Below, piece by piece: positions 12,509 through 46,118 of a DNA stretch of 64,000 nucleotides. Numbering within the stretch: the first letter of the stretch is position 1; every line of letters begins with the position of its first letter. The notes beneath the pieces were generated by a model. That model did not search any database and had not been told where the DNA came from. It saw nothing but the letters and a program-made list of their open reading frames with translations. The stretch lies in contig JBILWX010000006.1 in the NCBI GenBank assembly GCA_044369655.1, forward strand, positions 2,102 through 66,101, read 5' to 3'. The position numbers and the translations under genes were made by a program. This DNA is from Pirellulales bacterium. Its GTDB lineage: Bacteria > Planctomycetota > Planctomycetia > Pirellulales > UBA1268.

Positions 12509-12601
12509 GCGGTGAGCCGCTTGCCATCGGAAAGCTCCGCTGGCTCGTGGTAAGATTTCCAGATCCTTCAATCAGGCCGGGCCCACAGGAACATGGTCCA
12601 T

Positions 12602-19335: not shown

Positions 19336-19378
19336 CCAGTGTGCCGCGGCGAATCGGGATCACTCCGGGTCATTACGC

Positions 19379-20203
19379 ATGTCCACCAGCACGACTCTCA
19401 CCGGCCGACCGATGGCCACCGGTGGTTTGTTCGACTCACACGGGCGGCTGGTCCCCGGCAAGGGCGAAGTGGTCTACAGCCAGATCGACCGCCGGTACTT
19501 CAGCCTGGCCCAGCCGGGGTTTACGTTTTCAGGAGTCCTGGCGGCGGTCGCCAAGCACCTGTGCATCGCCGACCTCGATCGCCTCATATCCGCCGCGGAG
19601 TTCGAGCGGCGCTGCAAGGAATCGCAGAGAGCCATCCTCGACGACGCGGACCTCGCCGGCTTGTTTCGCGGCGTCCATGTGCCGTTCGTGCTCGTGCCAG
19701 CGACGGCGCGGGCTGACATCGGGGAGGAACTCGATGCGGCACTGCTGCCAGCCGTTGCCTCGGCGTACGTCGAGAAGGTGCCCGGCTTCGAGTTCCGCAA
19801 CTACCTCAAGGGCCAACTCGCCGGCGCCACCCCCGTCGTTCCCGGCGTCCGGTACGAGCGGATCGTCGCGAGGCATGCGAGGGAGGTGGTCACCGGTTGG
19901 TATTTTCCATGTGCTTTGGCCGGCTTCGCCATTCCGGAGCAACGGCGGGTGATGGCCCGACTCCCCGAGTCTCTCTCGCTTGCCGGGCCGCTCGAGGCGG
20001 CGATGGCGTTCATCGGCGTCCCCGACATCCTGATGCGGTTGGAAAATTATCCCAACCTGCTCGCACTTGCGGCGGTCCAACCGCCCGACCCGAGGTTCTT
20101 CCACTTTTTCGAGGCGTATGGCTGGAACCTCACCTACAACCAGCGGTCGATGGTTGGCGCCGCCTCCGAGTACTTTTCCGGCGGGCTCACCGTGTGCGGC
20201 TGA
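19379..20203 (+). CDS. Hypothetical protein (274 aa), no family recognised
   Basis: It has strong GC3 bias and sits between coupled genes. It starts at ATG MSTSTTLTGRP. The track start at 19319 overlaps the radical SAM stop. Confidence 0.6.
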   Translation: MSTSTTLTGRPMATGGLFDSHGRLVPGKGEVVYSQIDRRYFSLAQPGFTFSGVLAAVAKHLCIADLDRLISAAEFERRCKESQRAILDDADLAGLFRGVHVPFVLVPATARADIGEELDAALLPAVASAYVEKVPGFEFRNYLKGQLAGATPVVPGVRYERIVARHAREVVTGWYFPCALAGFAIPEQRRVMARLPESLSLAGPLEAAMAFIGVPDILMRLENYPNLLALAAVQPPDPRFFHFFEAYGWNLTYNQRSMVGAASEYFSGGLTVCG

Positions 20204-20219
20204 CGCCCGCGCCTCACGC

Positions 20220-20975
20220 ATGCACAGCGGGTCCGCGAAGTTCTACGGAACCTTTTATTCCGGTGCGGGCGACGCCCGTCGGAAGGCGTCGTTCGTGACG
20301 TCGCTCCTCTCTCCGCGGCTCGGTCGGATTGTCGACGTGGCCGCGGGCGTTGGAGATCTCGCGTTCATGCTGGCCCACGAGGGGCATCATGTCTTCGGGT
20401 TTGAGCCCTGCGGTGAGATGTACGCGGTCTTGTTCGACCGGTTCAGCCGTGATTCCGATATCCGTCATCTCGCCGCGCTGTTTCCGATGCGGTTCGACGA
20501 CTATCCTCTCGACCCGGAAGCTGATGCGGTGGTAGCCTCTAACCTCTGGTCGCACCTCGAGACGGTCGCGCGAGACTCCCTGGTTCGCAGGGTGTTTCGC
20601 GGGCTCAGGCCGGGAGGCTTTCTGGTCATGAACTGTGTTCAAGACACGCCCCTGCGAGCGGATCAGCCGTGGGATGAGGTCTACAAGCGGGTGTTCGGCA
20701 AGGTCGTGATTCGCCATTTCGCCTCATCGACGGTCGTTCCCGGTGGAGCCTCGCGACATATTCGCTTCGAATACCGCATGGAATACGAAGGTGCCTTCGT
20801 GCATTCCGAATCGACCGAATTCGTGCTGACGCTCGACTCGCCGGACGGTGTTTCCGCGAGGCTCGCTGCGGCCGGATTCGCCGACATCCGGATTCGCGGG
20901 AGCTTCGCCGATACCGACTACGATCCTCGTCTTCCCGGTTTTCTGGTTGTAGCCCGCAAGCCACAGGAGGACTGA
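20220..20975 (+). CDS. Class I SAM-dependent methyltransferase
   Basis: RIVDVAAGVGDLAFMLAHEGHHVFGFEP (motif I/II) and LRPGGFLVM. Confidence 0.75.
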   Translation: MHSGSAKFYGTFYSGAGDARRKASFVTSLLSPRLGRIVDVAAGVGDLAFMLAHEGHHVFGFEPCGEMYAVLFDRFSRDSDIRHLAALFPMRFDDYPLDPEADAVVASNLWSHLETVARDSLVRRVFRGLRPGGFLVMNCVQDTPLRADQPWDEVYKRVFGKVVIRHFASSTVVPGGASRHIRFEYRMEYEGAFVHSESTEFVLTLDSPDGVSARLAAAGFADIRIRGSFADTDYDPRLPGFLVVARKPQED

Positions 20976-20979
20976 GCCC

Positions 20980-21495
20980 ATGGAAACGACGGCGAGGATC
21001 CGCGAACTCGTGACCGAGCTCGACAGCCTCTTTCCCGACTCCCGGCAAGGGCTCCCGATCGAGCTCTTCTACTTCGTCAGCAGGCTGACGCCGTTGGTCA
21101 ACGTGGATCTCCTGATTCGCAATGACCGCGGCGAGATCCTGCTCACCTGGCGTCACGACCAGTTCTACAAGGGTTGGCACATACCCGGTGGCATCATCCG
21201 CTTCAAGGAGACTGCGGCCGAGCGGATCAAGGCCGTGGCCCATTCGGAGTTGGGCGCGAACGTGGAGGCTGACGCAACCCCGTGCGAGGTCCACGAAAAA
21301 CAGAACTGCCAACGGGATGTCCGCGGCCACTTCATCTCGCTGCTCTACGAAGCTCGGCTGACGTCTGGACTCGACGACGCCCGGAAATGTGTCGATGTCG
21401 CCCGGCCCATGGACGGGCAATGGGCCTGGCACGGGCCATGTCCGGATCTGCTGCTTCCCAATCACGCCAGCTACCGCCATCTCTTCCAGCCATGA
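20980..21495 (+). CDS. Nudix hydrolase, GDP-mannose mannosyl hydrolase-like (WcaH/Gmm type)
   Basis: WHIPGGIIRFKETAAERIKAVAHSELG parallels the modified Nudix box of E. coli WcaH ([27 protein letters not shown], from memory). Confidence 0.75.
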   Translation: METTARIRELVTELDSLFPDSRQGLPIELFYFVSRLTPLVNVDLLIRNDRGEILLTWRHDQFYKGWHIPGGIIRFKETAAERIKAVAHSELGANVEADATPCEVHEKQNCQRDVRGHFISLLYEARLTSGLDDARKCVDVARPMDGQWAWHGPCPDLLLPNHASYRHLFQP

Positions 21496-22655
21496 AGCCT
21501 GCGGCCATATCGATCGATGCCTGCCGAGTCTGCGGCCGCTCGTTTTTTCCGGAGCCGCTGTTTCGGTTCGTCGGCATGCCCGCCGTCGCCCAAAACTTCC
21601 CCCGACGCGAGGACTTGGCGGCGGACAGCGGCAGCGACTTCGACGTCGTCCAATGCTCTGCGTGCGGCCTCGTGCAGCTATCCTGCGGACCGGTCGCGTA
21701 TTACCGGGATGTCATCCGCGCTGCGGCCGTCTCACCCGAGATGGCCGAGCACCGGCGTCAGCAGTTCGATGGTTTCGTGCGGATGCACGGCCTTCACCGC
21801 CGTCCAGTCATCGAGATCGGCTGCGGAAGCGGCGAGTATCTGCGTTGGCTGAAGGAGGCGGGCACCGAAGCACACGGTCTGGAGCACAACGAGGCTGCAG
21901 TCGACGCGTGCCGACGCCAGGGACTGCACGTGCAACGGGGATTCGTGGAGGGGAAGGGAACACGGATTCCTGGCGGGCCGTTCGACGGCTTCGTGATGCT
22001 CAGCTGCCTGGAGCATGTACCCGACGTGAATGGCATGCTTTCCGGAATCCGGGCCAATCTGGCCCCTTCCGCCGTCGGCCTCGTCGAAGTGCCGAACTTC
22101 GACATGATCGTTACCGAGCAGACGGTGAGCGAGTTCATGACCGACCATCTCCTCTACTTCACACGCGAGACGCTCGAGACGACGCTGAGGATCAACGGGT
22201 TCGAGGTGCTCGACTGCCGGGCGACGTGGCACGACTACATCCTGACGGCGACTGTGCGCGCCAGGGCACCGCTCGAGGTGGCGACATTCGCGGCAGTGGC
22301 TGCCGCGGTGCGGCGGGACATCGACACCTTCATCGGTCGTTTTCCGCCCCGATCAGTCGTCGTCTGGGGGGCCGGTCACCAGGCTCTCGCGGCCCTGGCG
22401 ATGCATCGACTCGGTGATCGATTGGCCTATGTGGTCGATTCGGCCGCCTTCAAGCAGGATCGCTTCACTCCCGCCACGCACGTTCCGGTCCGCAGTCCAG
22501 CGGAATTGAAGTCCGATCCAGGCATCCGGGCCGTGATCGTGATGGGGGCGAGCTACTCCGACGAGATCAGGAGGACTCTCCGCAACGACTATTCCCCCGC
22601 GCTTTCCGTCGCGATCCTGCGGCCTGCGCATCTCGAAACGGACGCCGTGGCATGA
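21492..22655 (+). CDS. C-methyltransferase-like protein (Zn-ribbon, class I methyltransferase, C-terminal Rossmann-like domain)
   Basis: The start is the ATGA overlap with the Nudix stop. It has two CxxC pairs (CRVCGRS...CSACGLVQL), the core VIEIGCGSGEYL, and C-terminal VVVWGAGHQALAAL. Confidence 0.7.
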   Translation: MKPAAISIDACRVCGRSFFPEPLFRFVGMPAVAQNFPRREDLAADSGSDFDVVQCSACGLVQLSCGPVAYYRDVIRAAAVSPEMAEHRRQQFDGFVRMHGLHRRPVIEIGCGSGEYLRWLKEAGTEAHGLEHNEAAVDACRRQGLHVQRGFVEGKGTRIPGGPFDGFVMLSCLEHVPDVNGMLSGIRANLAPSAVGLVEVPNFDMIVTEQTVSEFMTDHLLYFTRETLETTLRINGFEVLDCRATWHDYILTATVRARAPLEVATFAAVAAAVRRDIDTFIGRFPPRSVVVWGAGHQALAALAMHRLGDRLAYVVDSAAFKQDRFTPATHVPVRSPAELKSDPGIRAVIVMGASYSDEIRRTLRNDYSPALSVAILRPAHLETDAVA

Positions 22656-23704
22656 AGCCCTTGCCCCGCGAAGACCTCGACGCTGCGATCGACCTCGCGG
22701 ACCAATGCTTCCGCGAGCTTCGCGGTGCCCGGATCTTCCTCACGGGGTGCACGGGATTTTTCGGTGTCTGGATACTGGAAACGCTTCGCCGGGCAGACGA
22801 GCGGTTTGGTCTCGGGCTCGATCTGACCCTGCTCAGTCGTTCGCCCAACGCATTCGTCGAGCAGCACCCGCACCTCGCCCCCGCCGACCGCCTGCGTTAT
22901 CTGCAGGGCGACATCCGGTCTTTCGCATTTCCCGTGGGTATCTTTTCACACGTCATTCACGGGGCGACGACGAACGCCCGGGAGACGTTCGCCGGTGAAG
23001 ATCCGCTACGGAAGTTCGACACCGTGGCGCTCGGAACTCGGCGTGTCTTGGAATTCTGCGAAAGTGGGTCCGTTTCCGACATGCTCTACGTCGGCTCGGG
23101 CGCCGTCTACGGCCGTCGCACGACGCCGGAGCCGATTTGCGAGGACGACCCGTTCGCGCCGCACCCGCTCGACGTGGGCATGACACTCGGGCATGCGAAA
23201 CGTGCCGCCGAACTTTTCTGTGCGATCTACGGGGCGCGATGTGCGACCCGGATCAAGATCGCCCGCTGCTTTTCCTTCGTGGGGCCGCAGTTGCCGCTCG
23301 ACATCCACTATGCGATCGGCAACTTCATCGCCGACGCAATTGCGGAACGCCCGATCACCGTCACCGGCACCGGCCGGGCGGTTCGGTCCTACATGTACAT
23401 GTCGGACCTCGTCGCCTGGCTGGTCACGATTCTGGTGCGGGGCACACCGCTTCGTCCGTACAATGTCGGATCCGAGGACGGTCGGCCGGTGCTTGAAATG
23501 GCAAACGTCGTGGCCAGAATTGCGGGCCAAAGGGTCCAGAGACCTCGGTTCCCGGAAAAGGAAGCACGAAGCTCTGCCGGCGATAACTACGTCCCGTCCG
23601 CTGCCCGCTCGATGTCGGAATTGGGGCTTCGCCAGTCCGTTCCGCTTGAAGAATCCATCCGCAAAATGCTGGCCTATCACGCTCTCCAGGGATTGAAGAC
23701 ATGA
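22652..23704 (+). CDS. NAD-dependent epimerase/dehydratase family (extended SDR)
   Basis: IFLTGCTGFFGVWILETL (GxxGxxG) and YVGSGAVYG. The expected YxxxK position reads LGHAK by my eye alignment (see findings). Confidence 0.75.
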   Translation: MKPLPREDLDAAIDLADQCFRELRGARIFLTGCTGFFGVWILETLRRADERFGLGLDLTLLSRSPNAFVEQHPHLAPADRLRYLQGDIRSFAFPVGIFSHVIHGATTNARETFAGEDPLRKFDTVALGTRRVLEFCESGSVSDMLYVGSGAVYGRRTTPEPICEDDPFAPHPLDVGMTLGHAKRAAELFCAIYGARCATRIKIARCFSFVGPQLPLDIHYAIGNFIADAIAERPITVTGTGRAVRSYMYMSDLVAWLVTILVRGTPLRPYNVGSEDGRPVLEMANVVARIAGQRVQRPRFPEKEARSSAGDNYVPSAARSMSELGLRQSVPLEESIRKMLAYHALQGLKT

Positions 23705-24630
23705 AAAAAGTTTCCGTCGTGATCCCGTGTTTCAACGAGGAAGAGAACGTCAACATAGTCTACGACCGCACCACCGATGTGTTTCGTCAGCTACCCGCCT
23801 ATGAATACGAGATTATCTTCATCGACAACGATTCGACCGACCGGACCGTGTCACTATTGAGGGAGATCGCGGCACGCGATAAGCGGGTGAAGGTGATCGT
23901 CAACTCCCGCAATTTCGGCCATCTGCGATCGCCATTTCACGCGCTGATGAACACGACCGGTGACGCGGCGCTCATGATGGCTGCCGATCTGCAGGATCCG
24001 CCGGAGCTCATTCTGGACTTCGTGCGCAAGTGGGAGGAAGGCAACGATATCGTTTTGGCGATCAAGGACCGCACCGATGAGAAGGGCCTTTTGCCGCACG
24101 TGCGGAAGCTCTACTACTTTTTCCTGGCGAGTATTTCGGAGAACGAAGTCGTCCAGGGGTTTCATGGCTACAGCCTTTTGGACAGGAAGGTCGTGGAGGC
24201 GATCAGGTTATTTCACGACCCGCTCCCGTTCTTCCGCAGCATGCTGCTGGAGGCTGGTTTCCGGAGAGCCGTCGTTCGTTTCTGTCAGCCAACGCGGAGG
24301 CGCGGCGTTACGGCGAACAATCTGTACTCGCTGTACGACACGGCGATGCTCGGAATCGTCCAAAACTCCAAGGTGCCACTTCGTATCGCAATCTTTGTCG
24401 GCTTTACGATCGCCTGCGGGAGTTTCGCTATCGCGATCGGTTATCTCATCCGCAAAGTGCTCTACTGGGACGACGTCTCGCTTGGCATCGCGCCGTTGCT
24501 CATCGGCCTGTTCTTTCTTTCAGGAACGCAGTTGATTTTTCTGGGAGTCATCGGCGAATACATCGGTGCGTTGTGCACGCAGGTCAAGAACAGGCCTTTG
24601 GTAATCGAGAGAGAGCGAATCAACTTCTGA
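23701..24630 (+). CDS. Polyprenyl-phosphate glycosyltransferase (GT2, GtrB/ArnC/DPM1-like)
   Basis: VSVVIPCFNEEENV, IIFIDNDSTDRT and MAADLQDPPE, plus two C-terminal TM helices (LRIAIFVGFTIACGSFAIAIGYLI and APLLIGLFFLSGTQLIFLGVIGEYI). Confidence 0.85.
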   Translation: MKKVSVVIPCFNEEENVNIVYDRTTDVFRQLPAYEYEIIFIDNDSTDRTVSLLREIAARDKRVKVIVNSRNFGHLRSPFHALMNTTGDAALMMAADLQDPPELILDFVRKWEEGNDIVLAIKDRTDEKGLLPHVRKLYYFFLASISENEVVQGFHGYSLLDRKVVEAIRLFHDPLPFFRSMLLEAGFRRAVVRFCQPTRRRGVTANNLYSLYDTAMLGIVQNSKVPLRIAIFVGFTIACGSFAIAIGYLIRKVLYWDDVSLGIAPLLIGLFFLSGTQLIFLGVIGEYIGALCTQVKNRPLVIERERINF

Positions 24631-24776: not shown

Positions 24777-26534
24777 ATGGACCGGATCCTCTTCGTCATA
24801 CCTCCGCACCTCAAGTGCGAAGATTTTCTTCACCCGGCCTACAACGCCCGGATTGAAACCCGTGACTCAGGGTGCAAGTTCGGTAGCGTGTTGACCGACA
24901 TGCCGCTCGGGCCGATGGCGCTCGCAGCGTATCTGAAGCACACTCGCGGCGATGAAATCGAGGTGCGAGTGCTGGACTTCAACGTCGAATTGAACTTCGT
25001 GCAGGAGTTTCCGTGGGCAAACTTTCGGGAGTATTTCGAACACGTCCTTCGGACAGGCCACGATCGCGTGAGTGGCGAAGCGTGGGTGGAGTATGCCCCC
25101 AATGTCATCGGGCTGTCGGTGCTCTTCAGTCCGTCGTACGACAATTTTCTCGACATTGCTGCCGCGGCACGGCTCGTGTTTCCTGAGTCGATTATCATGG
25201 CCGGAGGTGGCGTGCCAACCACGATGTACACGCAGATCTTCGCCGATTCGGATGCAATCGACGCTCTGTGTTTTGCCGAGGGCGAGAAGCCTCTTCACGA
25301 CTTTCTGGTGGCCACGGACCGACGCCGCTTCCTCGAGGAAAGCACGTCGTGGGTCACACGTGCCAAGAAGGATCTGCCCAAGTGTTCCTTCAAGCCGGAC
25401 TACGTGGTGGATCTCGACGAGATTCCTTTCGGTGACTATTCCGTCGTGCGCACGTAGGATTACTCACTCAATCCCGCTCTCACGGCATACGCAGGAGTTT
25501 TTCAAAAGAAGCAAAACTTCCACTACACAACGTCCCGAGGGTGCGTCTATCACTGCAACTTCTGCGCATCGCACAATGTCAATGGCCGAACCATGCGGTA
25601 CTACAGCGTTCCGCGTGTGAAGGCCGACCTGATGCGGCTGCGGGACGAGTGTGGTGCAAGAACGATCGTGTTTCAGGACGATCACTTCATGGGCGACCGC
25701 AACCGTGCGCTCGACATCGTCAACATCATCGGGGACCTGAAGCTCACGGCCGTGTTTCAGAACTCTCTCACGCTCTTCGCGCTGAAGCGTCCGATGCTGG
25801 AGGCGATGAAGCGGGCCGGCGTCAATCAATTGCTCCTGTCGGTCGAGTCGGGATCAGCCCGTGTTCTCCGGGAGATCATGCACAAACCGCTTACGTTGCC
25901 GATCGTCGAGCAGGTGGCGAATGACTGTCGCGATCTCGGCATCTATACCGACTGCAACATCCTGATCGGTAACATCCGGGAGACGGAGGCAGATATAGCC
26001 GAGGGGCGAGCGTTCCTCCGGAAGAGCTGTCCGGCCAACTGGTTCAAAATCTTCATAGCGACGCCGCTTGTCGGAAGCGAGTTCTACGAAGAAGCCAGGG
26101 CGAAGGGATTCATCACCGGAGACTTCGTCAACTTCGACTACAAGAAGGCGAATATCTCCACCGATGAGTTGAGCCAAGAGCGTGTGGAGCATCTCCAGTA
26201 TGAGCTCAACCTGGAGCTGAACTTCGTCTGCAACCACGACTTCCGGATTGGGGAAGAAAAGGTCGCAGCCGGCGACTACGAGGGCTCGGTTCGCAACTAC
26301 CGAACCGCGTTGCTCGGCTTCCTGAACGCCGTGAAGGCCAAGCCGAACCACGCCTTCGGTCATCACTTCGCAGCGATGTGCTACGATCGGCTCGGTGACA
26401 ATGAGAAGGCGGTCTACCATCGGGCGCATGCGGTACAAGCCTCGCAAGACCCTTTTTGGCAGAAGTGGCTGAGTGCTTTTCCACAGGTTGAAATCGGCAG
26501 GTGCCTGGAGTCCGTTGGCGTGCCGGCCGCTTAG
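24777..26534 (+). pseudogene. B12-binding radical SAM enzyme interrupted by a single in-frame TAG (25455-25457)
   Basis: Track ORFs 24777-25457 and 25593-26534 are in the same frame (816 nt apart). The stretch after the TAG translates DYSLNPALTAYAGVFQKKQNFHYTTSRGCVYHCNFCASHNVNGRTMRYY, which carries the CxxxCxxC motif. The N-terminal part looks like a B12-binding domain. The C-terminal end is TPR-like. Confidence 0.8.
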
Positions 26535-26597: not shown

Positions 26598-27260
26598 CTA
26601 GGACGCCGTCGGCTGAGAGGTCACGGCCATGGCGAACGCGTGAACGACCTCCTCCGGACGGAGTACGAACGTCGTCGTCGGCTCACGCTCCCCAGGGCCC
26701 GCCCCCCAACTCGCGAGGATGCATGGCAAGCCGACTTGCCGAGCAGCTTCGACGTCGGCCGTGGTGTCGCCAAGATATACGGCCGCAGACGGCGACAAAA
26801 CTGTGAGGATGTCACGAAGCATCTGAGCCTTCGTGCGAGGGGCGGGTGGCCGCGAGTCCACCGTTTCCACAACCGCAAAGCGGTCTTGCCAGCCCAGCGA
26901 CTCAAGGATCAATGCGGTGGGTGCGCGCCTCTTGTTCGTCGCGAGCGCCAACCTCCATCCCTTCGCGATCACCGCCCGGAGCATCTCTTCCACGCCGACG
27001 AACGGAGCCGTGAGTCGACACGCCCCGCCGTCGTAGGCCTTGGTGAATTCGTTTCGCAGACGATCAAGGACATCTCCCGCGCCAAGCCCTGTCACGCGTC
27101 GTAGTAATTCATCCAACGGAGGGCCGATGATCGCCGCATCGAGTGGTTCGGAAGGCTCGATGCCCGCCGTGGAACAGGCCTGACGGAGGGCTTCCGCGAC
27201 GCCAGGCTGCGAGTCGACGAGGGTGCCGTCGAGGTCACAAATGAGGAGCGGCGGTCCCAT
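26598..27260 (-). CDS. HAD-IA family phosphatase
   Basis: LLICDLDGTLVDS (motif I), LATNK, and YLGDTTADVEAA (motif IV). Confidence 0.8.
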   Translation of the reverse strand: MGPPLLICDLDGTLVDSQPGVAEALRQACSTAGIEPSEPLDAAIIGPPLDELLRRVTGLGAGDVLDRLRNEFTKAYDGGACRLTAPFVGVEEMLRAVIAKGWRLALATNKRRAPTALILESLGWQDRFAVVETVDSRPPAPRTKAQMLRDILTVLSPSAAVYLGDTTADVEAARQVGLPCILASWGAGPGEREPTTTFVLRPEEVVHAFAMAVTSQPTAS

Positions 27261-27291: not shown

Positions 27292-29109
27292 TCAGTTCAC
27301 GTTCCGCGCCGCCCGCGACTGCGGCAGGATAGGCACGATCATCTCCGCCTCGAGTTCCGGAAGCGTAAGCAGGGGGCTCATATCTTCCAGCGGCATCGAC
27401 AACATCGAGCCATCCGGCTGCGGAATGGCAGCCGCTTTCGGCGAGAGTTGTTCTTCGGTGGCCAGATGCGCATCGACGATGCACGGCCGCGGAAGCGCGA
27501 GTGCCTTTCGGAGATCGGCTTCGAGCGTCTCGGAGCGTGTGATCCGGGCATATGGCAGATCGAATGCCGCCGCCACCTGCTCCAGGTCCGGCATCCAGAG
27601 CCGATGGGCCGGATCAGTGCCGATGAACCGTGAATCGAAGTAATTCCGCTGCGTGTTGCGGATCGAGCAGTAGCCGCCGTTGTTCATGACGGTCAGGCAG
27701 ATTGGCAACCCCTGGCCCTTCAGGGTCGCCAGTTCCTGGATGTTGAGCATCAGGCTGCCGTCGCCTTCGACGCAGATCATCGGCCGTGAGCCCGCCGCGA
27801 GGCACGACCCTATCGCAGCAGGGAGGCCGTACCCCATCGATCCGAGGCCGGAGGTCAGAAACACCCGTTGGCCCGGTTTGTTGCGAAATCCGAGATAGAA
27901 AGCCTCGACTGCGAGCCCGGAACTTCCAGTGCCCACGACGCTGTCGGGCGGGGCTGCGGACGAGAGGGCTGCCACGAACGCCTGATGCGTGATCACGCCG
28001 GGCGGGGCGGTGATCGGCTCAGCGGCATACCGCTGTTTCCATGACTGGCAGCGGGATATCCATGCGGATTTCTTGCCGCACTGCTCAGACGCGGCATCGG
28101 CAAGAACCGCCTTCACGAAGCGAATGGCATCGACCGGAACCGCCATGGCGATGTCCATGTCGAGTTTCTCGATTTCACGCGGATCGACGTCGACGACAAT
28201 CTTCTTGGCCTCCCGCGCAAAGCCCCGCGGGTTGTAGGCCGTGATGACGTTGTCGAGCCTGCTGCCGATTGCGATCAGCAGGTCGCAGTTCTGTACGGCA
28301 AAATTCGCCGCCCGCCCCGCCACCACGCCTGGCCGACCGACGCAGAGCGGATGTTCCCAGGGAATCAGGTCGAGCGCGTTCCATGTGGCAACCACGGGGA
28401 TTCCCAGGCGGTCGACAAGTTCCCGAAATGGCTTGGACGCGCCGGCCAATCGCACGCCTTGCCCAACGAGAATGAGCGGCCGTTCCGCGGCGCGAATCAG
28501 CCGCAAGACCTCTTCGACCTGTGCATGGAGTTGTGCCTCGCTCACCTCCGCGGCCGCTGGTGGCAGAAAGCCTTCCAGCGTGTCGGGGTCAATCTGCGCC
28601 CCCTGGATGTCGAGCGGCACGTCGATCCACACCGGCCCCTTGCGGCCGGCGAGCATCTCGTGGATCGCCCGCTCGAATTCCCGCCGCGCATCCTGCGGTC
28701 GCTCGATCGTCACGGCGTATTTGGTGCAGTTTCGCACCATCGGCACGACGTCCACTTCCTGCACGCCCGTCTGGCGGAGCGGCCGGCCCCTGAGCCGGTC
28801 CGCTGTCTTCACCTGCCCGGAAATCACGAGGAACGGGACGGATTCGATCCACGCCCCGACCACCGGCGTGAGCACGTTCGTGGCACCCGGCCCCGTGGTG
28901 ACCATCGCCACGCCAAATGTTTCCTTCACGCGGCCGTAGGCCTCCGCGGCGATGCCGCAGGCCTGCTCATGGTGGCAGGGCACGGCCGTGATCCGAGGCT
29001 CGAGCGTGAGCGCGTCGTTCAAGTGCATCGCGCCGCCGCCGGGAAGCATGAAGACATGCTCGATGCCAAGATCGGCGATTCGGCGAACGAGATAATCGGC
29101 GACTCGCAT
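27292..29109 (-). CDS. Thiamine-diphosphate-dependent enzyme, acetolactate-synthase large-subunit-like (YerE-like candidate)
   Basis: MRVADYLVRRIADLGIEHVFMLPGGGAMHLNDAL, and the ThDP motif GDGSLMLNIQELATLKGQGLPICLTVMNNGGY. The start is trimmed to 29109; the track ORF extends to 29418 over the upstream gene's end. Confidence 0.85.
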   Translation of the reverse strand: MRVADYLVRRIADLGIEHVFMLPGGGAMHLNDALTLEPRITAVPCHHEQACGIAAEAYGRVKETFGVAMVTTGPGATNVLTPVVGAWIESVPFLVISGQVKTADRLRGRPLRQTGVQEVDVVPMVRNCTKYAVTIERPQDARREFERAIHEMLAGRKGPVWIDVPLDIQGAQIDPDTLEGFLPPAAAEVSEAQLHAQVEEVLRLIRAAERPLILVGQGVRLAGASKPFRELVDRLGIPVVATWNALDLIPWEHPLCVGRPGVVAGRAANFAVQNCDLLIAIGSRLDNVITAYNPRGFAREAKKIVVDVDPREIEKLDMDIAMAVPVDAIRFVKAVLADAASEQCGKKSAWISRCQSWKQRYAAEPITAPPGVITHQAFVAALSSAAPPDSVVGTGSSGLAVEAFYLGFRNKPGQRVFLTSGLGSMGYGLPAAIGSCLAAGSRPMICVEGDGSLMLNIQELATLKGQGLPICLTVMNNGGYCSIRNTQRNYFDSRFIGTDPAHRLWMPDLEQVAAAFDLPYARITRSETLEADLRKALALPRPCIVDAHLATEEQLSPKAAAIPQPDGSMLSMPLEDMSPLLTLPELEAEMIVPILPQSRAARNVN

Positions 29110-29114
29110 GATGT

Positions 29115-30608
29115 CTACAGCCAGTGCGTGAGCTGCGTCTTGCGGTTTTTGTTGGCGGCGATCGCGGGATCTGTGTAGTAGGAGTCGTCGGTGTAGTGTG
29201 TCGAGGAAATCTCCTCGAATACGCAGCCATGTTCCGAACGCATCGCGTGCCGCACTCCCCGCTCGACGGTGATCACGTCGCCGGCGCGGGCGTCCTGCTC
29301 GACGTCGTCGAGAATCACTTTCATGGAGCCATGGATGACCACGAACGTCTCTTCCTTCTGTTTGTGATGCTGCTCCGGGTGCGACTGCCCTGGCAGCAAA
29401 ACGAGGATTTTTTTGCAATAGGCCCGGTTCACCACCGTGAGCATGGTGAGGCCGTAGCGGTCGAACTGCTCCATGCCGTAGTGGTGCGAAAGCTCCAGAT
29501 CGGTCTTGCCTGGCAGGCTGACACCGCTGGACTTCAGGAGGCCCCGGACTGCGCTGACGTTTTTCAGCACGAGTTCGCGGAGGTGCGTGACCTTCGTGGC
29601 TTCGGTCGCGATCGGATCGAGCGCCTTCACCGCCGACAGCAGTTCATAACGGGAATATTTCGACCAATCGTTCGCGGTGACCTGCCCCTGGGCCGCGGGA
29701 AAGGCGAAAAAGACGTCGGCTGTCGTGAGCACTGTGCCAGCCGGCAGGTCCCGGGTGGCGAAGACTCCGCGACGGAGCGAGCCGAGCGACTCTCGCTCGC
29801 TGGCGGAGGGTTGCAGCCTCTCCCTGGGGCCGAGCATCGCCAGCGACTCTCGGCCGGCCGCCAGCCAGTTCGCGATTTCGGAGGGCGATGCCGAATAGGC
29901 GTTGTTGGGGTATTTCTCCGTCGGCAGACCGACGTGCTTTTCAACGACGGTCGCACCCTTCGCCAATGCCACGATGATTCCACCAGTGAACCCGGGCGGT
30001 TCGTGCGTGGAAAAGCCCACCTCGACATCCGGATACCGTTGCTTCAGAAGATCGAGTTGGTTCAGTGCGAGCCGGTCTGGCGGCGTCGGATACTCGGCGA
30101 CGCAGTGCAGGATCGTGAGCCGCTTGTTGCGGTGGAAAAGAAAGCTGACCACGGCGTCGATTTCCTGAAGCGAGGCCCCGGCTGTCGATGCGATGATCGG
30201 CTTGTCGACGCGGGCAATCCGCTCCAGGAGGGGCCAATCGGTGAACGAGCAGGAGGCGATCTTGACGATGTCGATGCCCTGCGACTCGATCTGATCGACC
30301 GAGGGCTCGTCAAACGGGGTACAGGCGGTAAGAAAACCGCATTCGCGCATCACGGCGAGCAGTTCGTCGAAGGCCCGCCTTTCCAGCCGTGTCGACTCGA
30401 ACCGCTTGACGTATTTGACGTCGTCTCGGCCTTTGAACGCGGGGTGGACGAAGGTGTCGAGGTCGCGGTACTGCAGCTTGAAAGCAAATCGAAACGTGTC
30501 GCGATAGGGCCTTGAAGCCTCTGCGAAGCTGCGGATGACCGCACTCCCATGGGCGATATCGCCCATATGGTTGTTGGCCATCTCGAAAATGATCAGCGGC
30601 TGGGCCAT
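29115..30608 (-). CDS. NeuB-like (N-acylneuraminate/nonulosonate synthase family) with SAF domain and C-terminal cupin
   Basis: MAQPLIIFEMANNHMGDIAHG...IVKIASCSFTDWPLLERIA..KPIIASTAGASLQEID..ILHCVAEYPTP is the NeuB TIM-barrel pattern. C-terminal HPEQHHKQKEETFVVIHGSMKV..GDVITVERGVRHAM is cupin-like. Confidence 0.8.
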   Translation of the reverse strand: MAQPLIIFEMANNHMGDIAHGSAVIRSFAEASRPYRDTFRFAFKLQYRDLDTFVHPAFKGRDDVKYVKRFESTRLERRAFDELLAVMRECGFLTACTPFDEPSVDQIESQGIDIVKIASCSFTDWPLLERIARVDKPIIASTAGASLQEIDAVVSFLFHRNKRLTILHCVAEYPTPPDRLALNQLDLLKQRYPDVEVGFSTHEPPGFTGGIIVALAKGATVVEKHVGLPTEKYPNNAYSASPSEIANWLAAGRESLAMLGPRERLQPSASERESLGSLRRGVFATRDLPAGTVLTTADVFFAFPAAQGQVTANDWSKYSRYELLSAVKALDPIATEATKVTHLRELVLKNVSAVRGLLKSSGVSLPGKTDLELSHHYGMEQFDRYGLTMLTVVNRAYCKKILVLLPGQSHPEQHHKQKEETFVVIHGSMKVILDDVEQDARAGDVITVERGVRHAMRSEHGCVFEEISSTHYTDDSYYTDPAIAANKNRKTQLTHWL

Positions 30609-30793
30609 GGCATCACTGCAGCAACGCATCCGGGCAGTGCACCGCTGCCCCTTCTCCGCAGAATAGTCGATTGCGTCCGGGTCGCGAACAGTCAGCCCGT
30701 TTTGCCCCGAAAAACGCACGGGTTTCGCCACGGTTACACGGCGTCGGGAAGTTCTCTAAATTGAACGCACTTTTACCCGCAACGAGGAAAGAC

Positions 30794-32608
30794 ATGGCAG
30801 CCGACCAGACATCCCCCGACCGTGAGACCGGCCAGCGACGGCATGCTGTCGACGGTGGTCTTTCCACGCAGGATCATCGTGCCTCCCTCCCCTGGCTGGC
30901 CGCCCTCTTGGCCCTGGTCGCCCTCGCCTGGTGTACCGGCACCGGCCGCTGGACCGCCGCCGCCTGGAACACGCCCACGCAATACGGCGACGGCTTCTAC
31001 TGCGACGTCATCAGCACCCTCGCCGGCATGAAGGCCACCGCCGAAGGCCACAACCTGCCGTTCGCCTGGAAAACCATCCCCGAACTCGGGGCGCCCTTCG
31101 ACGGCAACTGGACCGACTGGCCGTCGATCGAGGAACTCCAGGGCCTGCTCGTCGGCCTTTTGGGCAAGACCTTCGGCCTGTTCGCCGGACTCAACCTCGC
31201 CCTGCTGATCGGCCATCTGCTCGCCGCCGGCACGATGTTCTTCGTCGCCCGCTCCCTCGACTGCGCAGCGACCTGGGCCTTCGTCGCCGCGCTTGCCTAT
31301 GGCCTCGCGCCCTTCATCTTCGCCCAGTCGCCCCACCACATCACCGTCGCCTACGCCTGGCACATCCCGCTCTTCGTGCTCGTCTGGAAATGGGCCTCGG
31401 TCGAACCCGGCCTCGAGTTCGGCTCACGGCGGTTCTGGTGGGCCATCGGCATCGCCTTCCTCACCGGGCTCCAAAACGTCTACTACACCAACATCTTCTG
31501 CCAGCTCACCCTCCTCGGAGCCGGCTTTCTTTGGCTGCGCACCGGCTCCCGCACGCCGCTCAAGGCCGCCCTTGCCGTCGTCGGCGCCGCGGCCGCCGCC
31601 TTCGCCCTCATGAACCTCGACACCTGGACCTTCCGCGCCGTCAACGGCCCCAACCCAGGGGCCGTCGTCCGCGAATACAAATGGCTGGAGATCTACGGGC
31701 TCAAGCTCGTCGATCTAGTCGTGCCGCCGACCACGCATCATTTCCAACGCTTCGCCGATTTTGCCCGGTCCCATCGCGCAGCCGCCCCGCTCCAAGACGA
31801 GGGCTCCTACCTCGGCCTCGTCGGTCTGGCCGCCCTCGGTCTGTTGGCCTTCTCGAGCATCGCCGCCGTCGTCAAGAACCGGGCCAACTCGATCCCCATG
31901 GAGGCCTGGCAGGTGCTCTGGATCGTGCTCTGTTTTTCGACAGGGGGGCTCAACGCGATTCTCGGGGCCTGCGGCTTCACGCTCTTTCGCACCGGCTGCC
32001 GCTACAGCGTCGTCATTCTCGCGATCGCCCTGATCTATGCGGCACAGCGGCTCACGGCCCTGCAGCGTGCGGCTGCGTTTCGCACCGACCCCGATACCCT
32101 GAGGATCGGCGGGCTCACCGCGGCCGCGGCGGCCTGCCTCGTGATCCTCTGGGATCAGGTGCCACGGGCCCCGACGGCCGACCAGACCTCTGCGATCGCC
32201 CGGCAGGTCGAGGCCGATCGGCAGTTCGTCGCGCAGATGGAGGCGGCCCTGCCTGCCGGCGCGATGGTGTTTCAGCTGCCGATCATGGAGTTTCCCGAGG
32301 CGCCCGCCCCCGGCGTGCCACCCTACGACCACTTCCGCCCGTATCTCTATAGCAAGCAGCTACGGTTCTCTTTCGGCTCCATGAAGGGCCGGCCCCGCGA
32401 ACAGTGGCAGCAGGAACTCGGGAGGGTGCCGTTCGACAAGGCGATCGAACAGATCAAGGAACGGGGCTTCGCCGCGGTCTCCATCAACCGCAACGGCTTC
32501 CCAGACAAGGGCAAACAACTCGTTGAGAAACTCCGCGGGATGGGGTTCGAGAAGCCACCGATCGAAAGCGCGGCCGGCGACCTCGTCTGCGTGCCGCTGA
32601 CGCGATGA
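30794..32608 (+). CDS. Large polytopic membrane protein with soluble C-terminal domain (GT-C-like candidate)
   Basis: The start is ATG MAADQTSPD. About 12 hydrophobic segments are followed by a roughly 130-aa soluble tail (PPYDHFRPYLYSKQLRFSFGSMKGRP...). Confidence 0.6.
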   Translation: MAADQTSPDRETGQRRHAVDGGLSTQDHRASLPWLAALLALVALAWCTGTGRWTAAAWNTPTQYGDGFYCDVISTLAGMKATAEGHNLPFAWKTIPELGAPFDGNWTDWPSIEELQGLLVGLLGKTFGLFAGLNLALLIGHLLAAGTMFFVARSLDCAATWAFVAALAYGLAPFIFAQSPHHITVAYAWHIPLFVLVWKWASVEPGLEFGSRRFWWAIGIAFLTGLQNVYYTNIFCQLTLLGAGFLWLRTGSRTPLKAALAVVGAAAAAFALMNLDTWTFRAVNGPNPGAVVREYKWLEIYGLKLVDLVVPPTTHHFQRFADFARSHRAAAPLQDEGSYLGLVGLAALGLLAFSSIAAVVKNRANSIPMEAWQVLWIVLCFSTGGLNAILGACGFTLFRTGCRYSVVILAIALIYAAQRLTALQRAAAFRTDPDTLRIGGLTAAAAACLVILWDQVPRAPTADQTSAIARQVEADRQFVAQMEAALPAGAMVFQLPIMEFPEAPAPGVPPYDHFRPYLYSKQLRFSFGSMKGRPREQWQQELGRVPFDKAIEQIKERGFAAVSINRNGFPDKGKQLVEKLRGMGFEKPPIESAAGDLVCVPLTR

Positions 32609-38346: not shown

Positions 38347-38467
38347 TCATGGGGAAAACGCCGGCAACACGGACCGCCCTCCGCCCGCAGCCGGATTTGC
38401 GGCAATCGTCGGCGGAAGACACACTGGATGCCGAAGTTTAGACGTTTTCCATCCAAAGTGTAGCGGC

Positions 38468-45965: not shown

Positions 45966-46118
45966 ATTCACGAGGAGCGCGTGCTGACCGCGAGGGCGGT
46001 TGCACGGGCACGGTCTGCGTGTGCAGGCTGTTGGATTGACTGGCAACCGGTCTGTCTGGAGTGTGCCCGGCCATTCGCTGTCGTGGGCAGCGCTGCGCCC
46101 TGGCGTCGGAGAGGCCGC

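What the first reader, a model, noticed from the sequence alone, without database searches (positions are those of the whole stretch)
27292..29109. YerE-like ThDP enzyme in a CDP-3,6-dideoxyhexose island: possible branched-chain (yersiniose-type) sugar
Seen: an acetolactate-synthase-large-subunit-like ThDP enzyme (GDG-X24-NN motif present) lies inside a glycan cluster. The cluster also encodes RfbF, RfbG and RfbH (12.6-15.9 kb). Established: in Yersinia pseudotuberculosis the ALS-like ThDP flavoenzyme YerE adds a two-carbon unit from pyruvate to CDP-3,6-dideoxy-4-keto-hexose. That substrate is made by the DdhA-D (RfbF/G/H/I) route, and the product is yersiniose. Inference: this island may build a C-branched 3,6-dideoxyhexose. 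Two C-methyltransferase-like genes (7826-9058 and 21492-22655) suggest additional or alternative C-branching. Such sugars have not, to my knowledge, been described for planctomycete envelopes.
Basis: partly seen in the sequence, partly recalled or inferred. Interest (0 to 1): 0.65.

Follow-up and report, generated by a model that had tools for sequence, protein, structure and literature searches.

The report
Branched-sugar ThDP enzyme paired with NeuB-cupin
This gene most likely encodes a thiamine-dependent enzyme that attaches a carbon side chain to a CDP-activated 3,6-dideoxy sugar, as YerE does in Yersinia; it belongs to a separate, widespread subfamily that always follows a sialic-acid-synthase-like fusion protein, which probably makes a long side-chain donor, so the product is unlikely to be yersiniose itself.

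Summary
Window 27292-29109 (-) encodes a 605-aa three-domain ThDP enzyme with GDG-X24-NN and the catalytic Glu. It lies in a glycan island that also encodes RfbF, RfbG and RfbH, all above their NCBIfam equivalog cut-offs.

The enzyme is not an AHAS: it scores below every ALS cut-off and has no small subunit next to it. It is also not a YerE orthologue (30% identity). Its closest solved relative is JanthE (8rph, 37% identity, shared C-terminal extension), a characterised ketone-accepting "YerE-like" carboligase.

NJ trees group the JanthE-like superclade with the YerE clade against AHAS, Gcl and PoxB (100/100). Cross-HMM scores do not confirm that deep link.

In 74 of 77 orthologous loci from other genomes, a NeuB-SAF-cupin fusion ends within 100 nt upstream of the ThDP gene. 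RfbF-G-H usually precede that fusion. Other subclades of the superclade carry a BphI/J-type or HpcH-type pyruvate aldolase instead.

I infer that the NeuB-cupin protein, whose cupin domain is D-lyxose-isomerase-like, makes a 3-deoxy-2-ulosonic acid donor. The ThDP enzyme would couple this donor to CDP-4-keto-3,6-dideoxyhexose, followed by reduction, methylation and Gtr-like transfer. The E3 reductase is missing. No biochemistry exists for this subfamily.

The parts
27292..29109 (-). ThDP-dependent carboligase of the JanthE-like (YerE-like) superclade, 605 aa. It has GDG-X24-NN, the catalytic Glu, and a C-terminal extension with the motif SPK...PLEDMSPL.
   Evidence: The motif P[LMI]ED[LMI]xP is present in JanthE and in 58/150 representatives of the superclade, and absent from 120/120 YerE-clade proteins.
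29115..30605 (-). NeuB-SAF-cupin fusion protein (496 aa; real start MAQPLIIFEMANNHMG). Proposed to make the alpha-keto-acid donor. Its stop codon lies 5 nt before the ThDP start codon.
   Evidence: Pfam NeuB 4e-42 and Cupin_2 1e-11. PDB 3g8r at E 3e-127. NmNeuB metal and PEP residues are conserved, but Arg314 is replaced by Phe. The cupin model has pLDDT 88 and best matches D-lyxose isomerases. The junction reads TAG-ACATC-ATG.
26598..27260 (-). HAD-IA phosphatase (phosphoglycolate-phosphatase-like), the last gene of the minus-strand operon. It may dephosphorylate a phosphorylated ulosonate or precursor.
   Evidence: Pfam HAD_2 1e-22; below all NCBIfam PGP cut-offs. A homologue is present in 40/80 related loci, in a subset directly downstream of the ThDP gene.
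12593..13381 (+). RfbF/DdhA, glucose-1-phosphate cytidylyltransferase
   Evidence: TIGR02623, 314 bits against a cut-off of 300.
13363..14505 (+). RfbG/DdhB, CDP-glucose 4,6-dehydratase
   Evidence: TIGR02622, 419 bits against a cut-off of 278.
14502..15896 (+). RfbH/DdhC (E1), the PMP- and [2Fe-2S]-dependent CDP-4-keto-6-deoxyglucose 3-dehydrase
   Evidence: NF011936, 708 bits against a cut-off of 423. It is 55% identical to Yersinia canariae DdhC, and residues C193, H220, C251, C253 and C261 are all conserved.
18163..19335 (+). Radical SAM/SPASM enzyme; a conserved tailoring gene of the module
   Evidence: Pfam. Found in 30/80 related loci at a median 64% identity.
19319..20203 (+). Conserved protein with no Pfam family (294 aa as listed; homology starts near 19379)
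   Evidence: No Pfam hit. It is 80% identical to the L004 gene and present in 24/80 loci.
20067..20975 (+). Class I SAM methyltransferase
   Evidence: Pfam Methyltransf_25/11. Found in only 1/80 loci.
20980..21495 (+). NUDIX hydrolase; conserved in the module, role unknown
   Evidence: Pfam NUDIX 1e-6. Found in 38/80 loci at a median 53% identity.
21282..22655 (+). Sugar C-methyltransferase-like protein with three domains (Zn domain, class I MT, Methyltransf_14). The real start is probably near 21492.
   Evidence: Found in 46/80 loci, in many of them directly downstream of the ThDP gene.
22652..23704 (+). SDR (NAD-dependent epimerase/dehydratase family). Candidate side-chain ketoreductase, a functional analogue of YerF.
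   Evidence: Pfam Epimerase 5e-24. It is 36% identical to the SDR in the Sulfuritalea operon and present in 54/80 loci. tblastn with Yersinia YerF gave no hit at E 1e-3.
23701..24630 (+). GT2, GtrB-like polyprenyl-phosphate glycosyltransferase
   Evidence: It is 52% identical to the GT2 that follows yerE-yerF-gtrA in Yersinia canariae, and 49% identical to the Sulfuritalea GT2.
24777..26534 (+). B12-binding radical SAM gene interrupted by one in-frame TAG after codon 226. Probably a pseudogene or a sequencing error.
   Evidence: The intact 573-aa orthologue in L004 lies between the ThDP and HAD genes and has Glu at the position of the stop.
30671..32608 (+). Polytopic membrane protein, DUF7024-like. 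Candidate periplasmic glycosyltransferase, transcribed divergently from NeuB-cupin.
   Evidence: It is 26.5% identical over 524 aa (E 1e-35) to the Yersinia DUF7024 protein, and 55% identical to the L004 611-aa neighbour. No Pfam hit at E 1e-3.

Best explanation
The gene encodes a YerE-like ThDP carboligase that makes a C-4-branched 3,6-dideoxyhexose. It belongs to a distinct, widespread subfamily of the JanthE-like superclade.

Proposed pathway:
1. RfbF, RfbG and RfbH/E1 convert glucose-1-phosphate to CDP-4-keto-3,6-dideoxy-D-glucose. Enzyme identities are shown; the reductase partner E3 is not identified.
2. The NeuB-SAF-cupin protein encoded 5 nt upstream makes the donor. Its D-lyxose-isomerase-like cupin domain would turn a ketose into an aldose. 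Its NeuB domain would condense that aldose with PEP into a 3-deoxy-2-ulosonic acid, which is a gamma-hydroxy-alpha-keto acid (inferred). The HAD phosphatase may remove a phosphate if the substrate is a sugar phosphate (inferred).
3. The ThDP enzyme decarboxylates this acid and adds the resulting acyl-anion equivalent to the C-4 ketone of the CDP-sugar, forming a tertiary alcohol with a long polyhydroxyacyl branch. This is inferred from JanthE, ErwE and YerE chemistry and from synteny.
4. The SDR reduces the side-chain ketone, as YerF does. The C-methyltransferase-like protein, the second methyltransferase, the radical SAM enzymes and the NUDIX protein tailor the product (inferred).
5. The GtrB-like GT2 loads the sugar onto polyprenyl phosphate, and the DUF7024-like membrane protein transfers it to an envelope glycan (inferred from homology to the Yersinia yerE locus).
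For: Fold, motifs and relatives:
- Three ThDP domains and GDG-X24-NN are present.
- The best solved relative is JanthE (8rph): E 2.5e-123, 37% identity over 595 aa including the C-terminal extension. JanthE is a characterised aldehyde-ketone cross-coupling, YerE-like enzyme (PMC12188165, PMC12247030).
- NJ trees give 100/100 support for JanthE-like plus YerE clades against E. coli IlvB, IlvI, Gcl, PoxB and yeast and Arabidopsis AHAS.

Synteny across 80 loci from other species:
- NeuB-cupin ends within 100 nt upstream of the ThDP gene in 74/77 loci.
- RfbH lies directly upstream of NeuB-cupin in 57/72 loci.
- RfbF, RfbG and RfbH all lie within 6 kb upstream in 50/61 loci.
- The reverse check holds in two loci found through NeuB-cupin.

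Positional equivalence of NeuB-cupin with the donor aldolase:
- The representative nearest JanthE has BphJ/BphI-type aldolase genes next to its ThDP gene, the ErwE architecture.
- Another subclade has an HpcH/HpaI aldolase, the MMAR_2331 type.
- NeuB-cupin loci lack these aldolases (0/80 and 1/80).
- The published unifying scheme has an aldolase make the 4-hydroxy-2-oxo acid donor (PMC9306805).

Partner and downstream genes:
- The NeuB catalytic core is conserved, while the ManNAc-binding Arg314 is Phe.
- The cupin domain best matches D-lyxose isomerases.
- E1 signature residues are conserved in RfbH.
- GT2 and the DUF7024-like protein are homologous to those in the Yersinia yerE locus.
Against: - No member of this subfamily, and no NeuB-cupin protein, has been assayed. 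The donor, the acceptor and the order of steps are inferred.
- The E3 reductase that E1 needs is absent from the window and from all 80 loci.
- In the window, rfbFGH lie 11 kb from the ThDP gene and on the other strand.
- The deep link to YerE rests on NJ trees with few outgroups and could reflect long-branch attraction. The YerE-clade HMM scores E. coli IlvI (341 bits) above this protein (302), and the JanthE-like HMM scores PpYerE (487) about the same as IlvB (468).
- The cupin also gives sub-threshold hits to FdtA-type NDP-sugar ketoisomerases, so it might act on the CDP-sugar instead.
- The HAD gene is present in only 40/80 loci.
Confidence: 0.6

Rival explanations
1. True YerE function. 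The enzyme uses pyruvate and adds a C2 (acetyl) branch to give a yersiniose-type sugar, and NeuB-cupin serves a separate sugar pathway in the same island.
For: The ddhABC-type genes and the GT2/DUF7024 pair resemble the Yersinia yerE locus. JanthE accepts pyruvate among other donors (PMC12188165).
Against: Identity to the YerE clade is only 30%. The NeuB-cupin/ThDP pair is translationally coupled and nearly invariant (74/77). NeuB-cupin occupies the position of the donor aldolase in sister subclades. ErwE, the precedent with a linked aldolase, rejects pyruvate (PMC9306805).
Confidence: 0.12
2. Reverse order. The ThDP enzyme first installs a short branch bearing an aldehyde (for example from glyoxylate), or the cupin isomerises the CDP-sugar. 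NeuB then extends the CDP-linked intermediate with PEP.
For: The cupin gives sub-threshold FdtA/WxcM hits. NeuB enzymes condense PEP with aldehydes (established knowledge). The synteny data do not fix the order of steps.
Against: The cupin fold matches free-sugar D-lyxose, L-ribose and mannose isomerases over its whole length. No NeuB homologue is known to act on a nucleotide-sugar (my knowledge). The characterised precedent, ErwE, uses a pre-formed keto acid (PMC9306805).
Confidence: 0.1
3. Simple decarboxylase. The ThDP enzyme only decarboxylates the NeuB product to a 2-deoxy-aldose or aldehyde, which is then used elsewhere, with no C-C coupling to the CDP-sugar.
For: The tight NeuB-cupin/ThDP coupling alone would fit this. 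Many enzymes of the ThDP decarboxylase superfamily are simple decarboxylases (established knowledge).
Against: The nearest characterised relative is a carboligase that accepts ketones (PMC12188165). Conserved contiguity with rfbFGH would be left unexplained. Sister subclades have the ErwE and MMAR_2332 cluster architecture.
Confidence: 0.08
4. Ordinary acetohydroxyacid synthase (IlvB/IlvI/IlvG) for branched-chain amino acid synthesis that happens to sit in the island.
For: The best NCBIfam hit is TIGR00118 at 358 bits. Identity to E. coli IlvI is 29%.
Against: The score is below the cut-off (538) and below the cut-offs of all other ALS equivalogs. No regulatory small-subunit gene is adjacent. 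The protein matches JanthE far better than any AHAS (415 against 238 bits). The glycan-cluster context is conserved in 80 genomes. The C-terminal extension is absent from AHAS.
Confidence: 0.02

Closest known systems
JanthE (Janthinobacterium sp. HH01; PDB 8rph, 8rpi, 8rpj)
   Same: It is the closest solved and characterised relative: 37% identity over the full length, with the same C-terminal extension (SPK...PLEDxSPL). It is a ThDP carboligase that accepts ketones and alpha-keto acids longer than pyruvate (PMC12188165).
   Different: JanthE has CDG where the window protein has GDG; the window's close family is mostly SDG. It sits in a different subclade. The representative nearest JanthE is linked to BphI/J-type aldolase genes, not to NeuB-cupin. 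JanthE's physiological substrates are unknown.
YerE (Yersinia pseudotuberculosis) and PpYerE (PDB 5ahk): yersiniose A biosynthesis
   Same: It is an ALS-like ThDP enzyme next to ddhABC and followed by a reductase, GT2 and a DUF7024 membrane protein. The window has homologues of the GT2 (52% identity) and of DUF7024. The two clades are sisters in NJ trees.
   Different: Identity is only 30% and YerE has no C-terminal extension. The Yersinia locus has E3 (ddhD), gtrA and yerF and has no NeuB-cupin; the window lacks E3, gtrA and a YerF orthologue. YerE's donor is pyruvate, giving a C2 branch (PMC9306805).
ErwE, MMAR_2332 and MyGE: longer-branched sugars (erwiniose, caryophyllose, gastriose)
   Same: The logic of the "unifying scheme" is the same: a linked C-C-forming enzyme makes a gamma-hydroxy-alpha-keto acid, a ThDP enzyme couples it to CDP-4-keto-3,6-dideoxyglucose, and a reductase follows (PMC9306805). 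Subclades with exactly these aldolase types occur in the same superclade.
   Different: Here a PEP-dependent NeuB-type synthase fused to an isomerase-like cupin replaces the pyruvate aldolase (BphI- or HpcH-type). I could not obtain the ErwE, MMAR_2332 or MyGE sequences, so their position relative to this protein is untested.
NeuB, PseI, LegI and Kdn-9-P synthase (PEP-dependent ulosonic acid synthases)
   Same: The partner protein has the NeuB and SAF domains and conserves the metal-binding His pair, Glu and the PEP-binding Lys/Ser. A HAD phosphatase in the operon recalls the Kdn-9-P and Neu5Ac-9-P phosphatases (my knowledge).
   Different: It is far below the NeuB and PseI equivalog cut-offs (140 against 400; 129 against 340). 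Arg314 is Phe. It is fused to a D-lyxose-isomerase-like cupin. No CMP-sugar synthetase was seen among the window ORFs scanned. It is coupled to a ThDP enzyme.

Membership tests
YerE sensu stricto (yersiniose synthase) | Orthology to YerE/PpYerE (same clade, high identity) | tested here: not met
   Identity to PpYerE and Yersinia homologues is 30%, against 29% to E. coli IlvI. The protein is in a separate clade. The YerE-clade HMM gives it 302 bits, below E. coli IlvI at 341.
YerE sensu stricto (yersiniose synthase) | Pyruvate as donor, CDP-4-keto-3,6-dideoxyglucose as acceptor | not testable with these tools
   This needs an enzyme assay.
YerE-like ThDP carboligases (functional class: C-branching of CDP-deoxy-keto sugars) | Three-domain ALS-like ThDP fold with the ThDP motif and catalytic Glu | tested here: met
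   Pfam N, M and C domains; GDG-X24-NN at 449-477 and HHEQA.
YerE-like ThDP carboligases (functional class: C-branching of CDP-deoxy-keto sugars) | Genomic linkage to genes that make CDP-4-keto-3,6-dideoxyhexose (ddhA, ddhB, ddhC) | tested here: met
   All three are in the window above equivalog cut-offs. They are contiguous with the orthologue in 50/61 loci.
YerE-like ThDP carboligases (functional class: C-branching of CDP-deoxy-keto sugars) | Grouping with characterised members rather than with AHAS | tested here: inconclusive
   JanthE is the best PDB hit by 160 bits. NJ gives 100/100 for the JanthE-like plus YerE clades against AHAS, Gcl and PoxB. However, HMM cross-scores do not separate YerE from AHAS, only six outgroup sequences were used, and no ML tree was built.
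YerE-like ThDP carboligases (functional class: C-branching of CDP-deoxy-keto sugars) | Linked side-chain reductase (YerF-type) | tested here: inconclusive
   An SDR at 22652-23704 is conserved in 54/80 loci, but tblastn with Yersinia YerF gave no hit at E 1e-3.
JanthE-like superclade | Full-length similarity including the C-terminal extension motif P[LMI]ED[LMI]xP | tested here: met
   Bootstrap support for superclade monophyly is 69-75%.
JanthE-like superclade | CDG variant of the ThDP motif | tested here: not met
   The window has GDG. Of 120 close family members, 89 have S, 29 have G and 2 have no match at this position. CDG occurs in 1/150 representatives, so it does not define the clade.
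Acetohydroxyacid synthase large subunit (IlvB/IlvG/IlvI) | Score above the NCBIfam equivalog cut-off | tested here: not met
   TIGR00118 scores 358 bits against a cut-off of 538. All other ALS models are also below their cut-offs.
Acetohydroxyacid synthase large subunit (IlvB/IlvG/IlvI) | Adjacent regulatory small subunit (IlvN/IlvH) | tested here: not met
   The neighbours are NeuB-cupin and HAD.
CDP-3,6-dideoxyhexose pathway (DdhA-D / RfbF, G, H, I) | E1 dehydrase with [2Fe-2S] Cys ligands and His220 | tested here: met
   C193, H220, C251, C253 and C261 are conserved. The residue numbers are recalled from the literature and match the Yersinia canariae DdhC sequence.
CDP-3,6-dideoxyhexose pathway (DdhA-D / RfbF, G, H, I) | E3 reductase (DdhD/RfbI; Fer2 + FAD_binding_6 + NAD_binding_1) | tested here: not met
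   tblastn with Yersinia DdhD gave no hit in the window or in the 80 loci. No such Pfam architecture occurs among the window ORFs scanned. It may be encoded elsewhere in the genome.
NeuB/PseI/LegI ulosonic acid synthases (for the partner protein) | NeuB TIM-barrel with metal-binding His pair and PEP-binding residues | tested here: met
   Equivalents of E25, K129, S132, Y186, H215, E234 and H236 are conserved in the alignment to NmNeuB. The residue roles are recalled from the literature.
NeuB/PseI/LegI ulosonic acid synthases (for the partner protein) | Equivalog-level score and the N-acetyl-sugar-binding Arg314 | tested here: not met
   TIGR03569 scores 140 against 400, and TIGR03586 scores 129 against 340. 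Arg314 aligns with Phe.
Gtr-type periplasmic glycosylation module (GtrA, GtrB, GtrC-like) | GtrB-like GT2 plus a large polytopic transferase plus the GtrA flippase | tested here: inconclusive
   The GT2 is 52% identical to the Yersinia GT2, and the DUF7024-like protein matches at E 1e-35. No GtrA homologue is in the window.

The most novel reading that the evidence does not exclude
A PEP-dependent NeuB-type synthase fused to a D-lyxose/mannose-isomerase-like cupin feeds a C8-C9 3-deoxy-ulosonic acid directly to a ThDP carboligase. The carboligase grafts it, minus CO2, onto C-4 of CDP-4-keto-3,6-dideoxyhexose. The result would be an undescribed class of very long-branched (about C13-C14) "higher" sugars. 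The module occurs in at least 567 species-level genomes. In some Betaproteobacteria it sits beside flagellin genes, and here it sits in a Pirellulales envelope-glycan island, so the sugar would decorate both flagellins and LPS-like glycans.
Probability: 0.35. Interest if true: 0.72.

Novelty: new variant of a known kind. Interest (0 to 1): 0.55.

Why it matters
C-branched deoxysugars with long side chains (caryophyllose, erwiniose, gastriose) are rare, hard to detect chemically, and affect the immune response to bacterial surfaces. The enzymes that make them are sought as biocatalysts for chiral tertiary alcohols.

This locus defines a large, uncharacterised subfamily, found in at least 567 species genomes. 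In this subfamily the donor-forming pyruvate aldolase of the published scheme appears to be replaced by an irreversible PEP-dependent NeuB-type synthase fused to a sugar isomerase.

If that is confirmed, three things follow. It would predict a new type of surface sugar in many environmental Proteobacteria and in Planctomycetes. It would give a physiological context to the JanthE-like enzymes, whose natural substrates are unknown. It would also add polyhydroxylated ulosonic acids to the donor range of ThDP carboligases.

Tried and rejected
- AHAS/IlvB identity: rejected (NCBIfam cut-offs, context, PDB ranking).
- Sulfoacetaldehyde acetyltransferase: 228 bits against a cut-off of 620, rejected. 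IolD is not among the 25 best of 54 NCBIfam matches.
- Phosphonopyruvate-decarboxylase idea: dropped, because the protein has all three domains and no PEP mutase was seen among the window ORFs scanned.
- E3, GtrA and YerF homologues: searched for in the window with Yersinia and Sulfuritalea proteins; none found.
- JanthE paper (Lanza 2024) and the in-silico BGC survey (Krug 2024): neither is held. I therefore cannot say whether these NeuB-linked clusters are already listed there.
- Literature search for NeuB or cupin together with YerE-like enzymes: nothing relevant. The supplement of PMC9306805 is not held.
- First bootstrap script: timed out and was replaced by a faster one.
- Cross-HMM scoring meant to confirm the sister relation to YerE: it did not confirm it.
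- ErwE, MMAR_2332, MyGE and YpYerE sequences: could not be retrieved by accession. The YerE clade is represented by PpYerE and by Yersinia species homologues.
- Mapping of the JanthE hotspot residues (V121, Y297, K567) onto the window protein: abandoned, because chain and paper numbering disagreed by one residue.


Full report
**1. Observation**

The finding's coordinates hold a real gene. Window 27292-29109 (minus strand) encodes 605 aa starting MRVADYL. The mechanical ORF runs on to 29418, but every homologue starts at MRVADYL.

Pfam finds the three ThDP-enzyme domains at E about 1e-34 to 1e-37. The motif GDG-X24-NN is at residues 449-477, and the cofactor-activating Glu lies in HHEQA.

The surrounding 1-33 kb is a glycan island with lower G+C than the rest of the window. 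It contains:
- RfbF, RfbG and RfbH, each above its NCBIfam equivalog cut-off;
- several GT2 and GT4 genes;
- an ABC exporter;
- methyltransferases and radical SAM enzymes.

The host is probably a Pirellulales planctomycete. The best genome match is a Pirellulales MAG at 79% identity, and a DUF1559/N-methyl protein is present.

**2. What the enzyme is not**

It scores below the curated cut-off of every acetolactate synthase model (TIGR00118: 358 against 538). It is also below the cut-offs for sulfoacetaldehyde acetyltransferase and glyoxylate carboligase. No AHAS small-subunit gene is adjacent.

It is not an orthologue of YerE either. Identity to PpYerE (PDB 5ahk) and to Yersinia homologues is 30%, the same as to E. 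coli IlvI at 29%.

**3. What it is closest to**

The best solved structure by a wide margin is 8rph (415 bits, against 256 for 5ahk and 238 for plant AHAS). 8rph is JanthE from Janthinobacterium sp. HH01. JanthE is a "YerE-like" ThDP enzyme that couples alpha-keto acids from pyruvate to 4-methyl-2-oxovalerate with ketones, and its physiological substrates are unknown (PMC12188165, PMC12247030).

The two proteins align over the full length at 37% identity. The alignment includes a C-terminal extension (SPK...PLEDxSPL) that is absent from all 120 YerE-clade proteins examined.

A search of 1.84 billion representatives shows at least 150 clusters (at 50% identity) scoring above 376 bits, so this is a large superclade.

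NJ trees (83-85 sequences, 100 bootstraps, two alignments) give these results:
- window protein with its Sulfuritalea and Azonexus orthologues: 100%;
- JanthE-like superclade: 69-75%;
- superclade plus YerE clade, against E. coli IlvB, IlvI, Gcl and PoxB and yeast and Arabidopsis AHAS: 100%.

There is a caveat. Profile cross-scores do not reproduce this deep link. The YerE-clade HMM scores E. coli IlvI (341 bits) above the window protein (302). The JanthE-like HMM scores PpYerE (487) about the same as IlvB (468). With few outgroups and a distance method, long-branch attraction is possible. I treat the deep placement as likely but not settled.

**4. Genomic context, the strongest evidence**

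A scan of one genome per species found at least 567 genomes with a relative. The 80 best (57-79% identity) are mostly Rhodocyclales, Chromobacterium, Methylophilaceae, Zoogloea, Pseudomonas and Desulfuromonadales/Geobacteraceae.

I ran tblastn with the window's proteins against these loci:
- A NeuB-SAF-cupin gene ends within 100 nt upstream of the ThDP gene, on the same strand, in 74 of 77 loci with enough flank.
- RfbH lies directly upstream of that gene in 57 of 72 loci.
- RfbF, RfbG and RfbH all lie within 6 kb upstream in 50 of 61 loci.

In the window, the NeuB-cupin stop codon and the ThDP start codon are 5 nt apart. Two loci found through the NeuB-cupin protein instead also have the ThDP gene immediately downstream.

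Further module genes recur in the 80 loci:

| Gene (window coordinates) | Loci with a homologue |
|---|---|
| C-methyltransferase-like, 21282-22655 | 46/80 |
| SDR, 22652-23704 | 54/80 |
| NUDIX, 20980-21495 | 38/80 |
| Radical SAM/SPASM, 18163-19335 | 30/80 (median 64% identity) |
| HAD, 26598-27260 | 40/80 |
| Second C-methyltransferase, 7826-9100 | 0/80 |

**5. Comparison with the canonical YerE locus**

The YerE-clade gene of Yersinia canariae lies in this order: ddhD(E3)-ddhA-ddhB-ddhC-yerE-yerF-gtrA-GT2-DUF7024.

The window's GT2 (23701-24630) is 52% identical to that GT2. The 645-aa membrane protein next to NeuB-cupin (30671-32608) is homologous to the DUF7024 protein (E 1e-35). The front end (CDP-dideoxy-keto sugar supply) and the back end (Gtr-like transfer through a polyprenyl-phosphate sugar) are therefore shared.

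What differs:
- NeuB-cupin is inserted before the ThDP gene.
- The tailoring genes are additional.
- E3, gtrA and a YerF orthologue are absent.

**6. Why NeuB-cupin is probably the donor synthase**

In the published "unifying scheme", a pyruvate aldolase encoded next to the ThDP gene makes a gamma-hydroxy-alpha-keto acid. ErwE, MMAR_2332 or MyGE then couples that acid to CDP-4-keto-3,6-dideoxyglucose, and ErwE rejects pyruvate (PMC9306805).

Other subclades of the same superclade show exactly those architectures:
- The representative nearest JanthE has acetaldehyde dehydrogenase plus a DmpG/BphI-type aldolase directly after the ThDP gene, with rfbFGH, gtrA, GT2 and DUF7024 around it.
- Another representative has an HpcH/HpaI aldolase.
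- A third, inside the 97%-supported clade that holds the window protein, has NeuB-cupin.

The aldolases are absent from the NeuB-cupin loci (0/80 and 1/80). NeuB-cupin thus occupies the slot of the donor-forming enzyme. NeuB chemistry (PEP plus an aldehyde gives a 3-deoxy-2-ulosonic acid) yields the same functional class of donor.

The NeuB domain keeps the equivalents of NmNeuB E25, K129, S132, Y186, H215, E234 and H236, but has Phe in place of the ManNAc-binding Arg314. It is 65%-level similar to the uncharacterised structural-genomics entry 3g8r.

The C-terminal 167 aa fold with confidence (pLDDT 88). Over their whole length they best match D-lyxose isomerases (2y0o, 7nzo, 3kmh; TM 0.6-0.7), followed by L-ribose and phosphomannose isomerases. 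Pfam Lyx_isomer is just above its cut-off.

A ketose-to-aldose isomerase fused to the condensing enzyme fits supply of an aldose such as D-lyxose or D-mannose, which would give a C8 or C9 ulosonic acid. This assignment is an inference. Sub-threshold FdtA hits leave open that the cupin acts on the CDP-sugar instead.

**7. Proposed mechanism and open points**

1. RfbF, RfbG and RfbH/E1 make CDP-4-keto-3,6-dideoxyglucose. E1 keeps all [2Fe-2S] ligands and His220. Its reductase is unidentified.
2. NeuB-cupin, possibly with the HAD phosphatase, makes the keto acid.
3. The ThDP enzyme decarboxylates the keto acid and attacks the C-4 ketone.
4. The SDR reduces the side-chain ketone.
5. Methyltransferases and radical SAM enzymes tailor the product.
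6. GT2 and the DUF7024-like protein deliver it to an envelope glycan.

Unexplained points:
- E3 is systematically absent.
- The roles of the NUDIX protein and the conserved 294-aa protein are unknown.
- The first residue of the ThDP motif varies (S, G or C).

In the window, the B12-radical SAM gene is interrupted by a TAG. The intact orthologue lies between the ThDP and HAD genes in a close relative.

**8. Novelty**

YerE-like enzymes and the aldolase/ThDP/reductase scheme are known, and a 2024 survey that I could not read lists more than 200 such clusters (PMC12247030). The ThDP enzyme is therefore a new member of a known kind.

I found no accessible paper that mentions the invariant pairing with a NeuB-cupin fusion. 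That pairing would be a new variant of the scheme.

"Yersiniose-type" and "DdhA-D route" need correcting.

Noticed in passing
window 24777-26534 (+): The B12-binding radical SAM gene has a single in-frame TAG after codon 226, where the intact 573-aa orthologue in L004 has Glu. This is either a pseudogene or a sequencing error. In L004 the gene lies between the ThDP and HAD genes; here it lies on the opposite strand after GT2.
   Followed up: partly
window (whole) and loci L012-L091: No E3 (DdhD/RfbI) reductase gene occurs near any NeuB-cupin/ThDP cluster (0/80 loci plus the window), although E1 keeps its Fe-S ligands. The electron donor for C-3 deoxygenation in this cluster family is unknown.
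   Followed up: partly
L095 2806-4401 (Azoarcus sp. KH32C); also L029, L043, L044, L053, L057, L069, L091: In some Proteobacteria the rfbFGH-NeuB/cupin-ThDP cluster lies within 10 kb of a flagellin gene (7/80 loci, plus L095). TPR/GT41-like proteins are nearby in 19/80 loci, which suggests a flagellin glycosylation island there. The window has neither.
   Followed up: partly
window 27292-29109 and proteins P0001-P0120: The first residue of the ThDP-binding motif is variable in this family. Of 120 close homologues, 89 have SDG and 29 have GDG (as here); JanthE has CDG.
   Followed up: partly
window 4079-6664 (-): An 861-aa protein combines a class I methyltransferase domain with a C-terminal PhyH (phytanoyl-CoA dioxygenase-like) domain. 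It sits beside GT2/GT4 genes, a GMD-like dehydratase (6802-7956) and a strong sugar C-methyltransferase (7826-9100). This probably forms a second, separate modified-sugar pathway.
   Followed up: no
window 15899-18013 (+): A polytopic membrane protein of about 700 aa lies between rfbH and the radical SAM gene. It has no Pfam hit and no homologue in the 80 related loci, so it is specific to this lineage.
   Followed up: partly
window 1-33000 versus 34000-64000: G+C is 56-65% across the glycan island and 64-72% in the rest of the window. The ThDP and NeuB-cupin proteins are 57-68% identical to proteobacterial ones. Both points are compatible with horizontal acquisition of the module.
   Followed up: no
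window 38297-42189 (+): Two adjacent large GTPase-like genes (MMR_HSR1 and Dynamin_N hits) may be a bacterial dynamin-like pair. They are unrelated to the finding.
   Followed up: no
window 45804-47018 (+): A DUF1559 (SBP_bac_10) protein with an N-terminal methylation motif, a family typical of Planctomycetes (from my own knowledge). This supports the taxonomic assignment.
   Followed up: no
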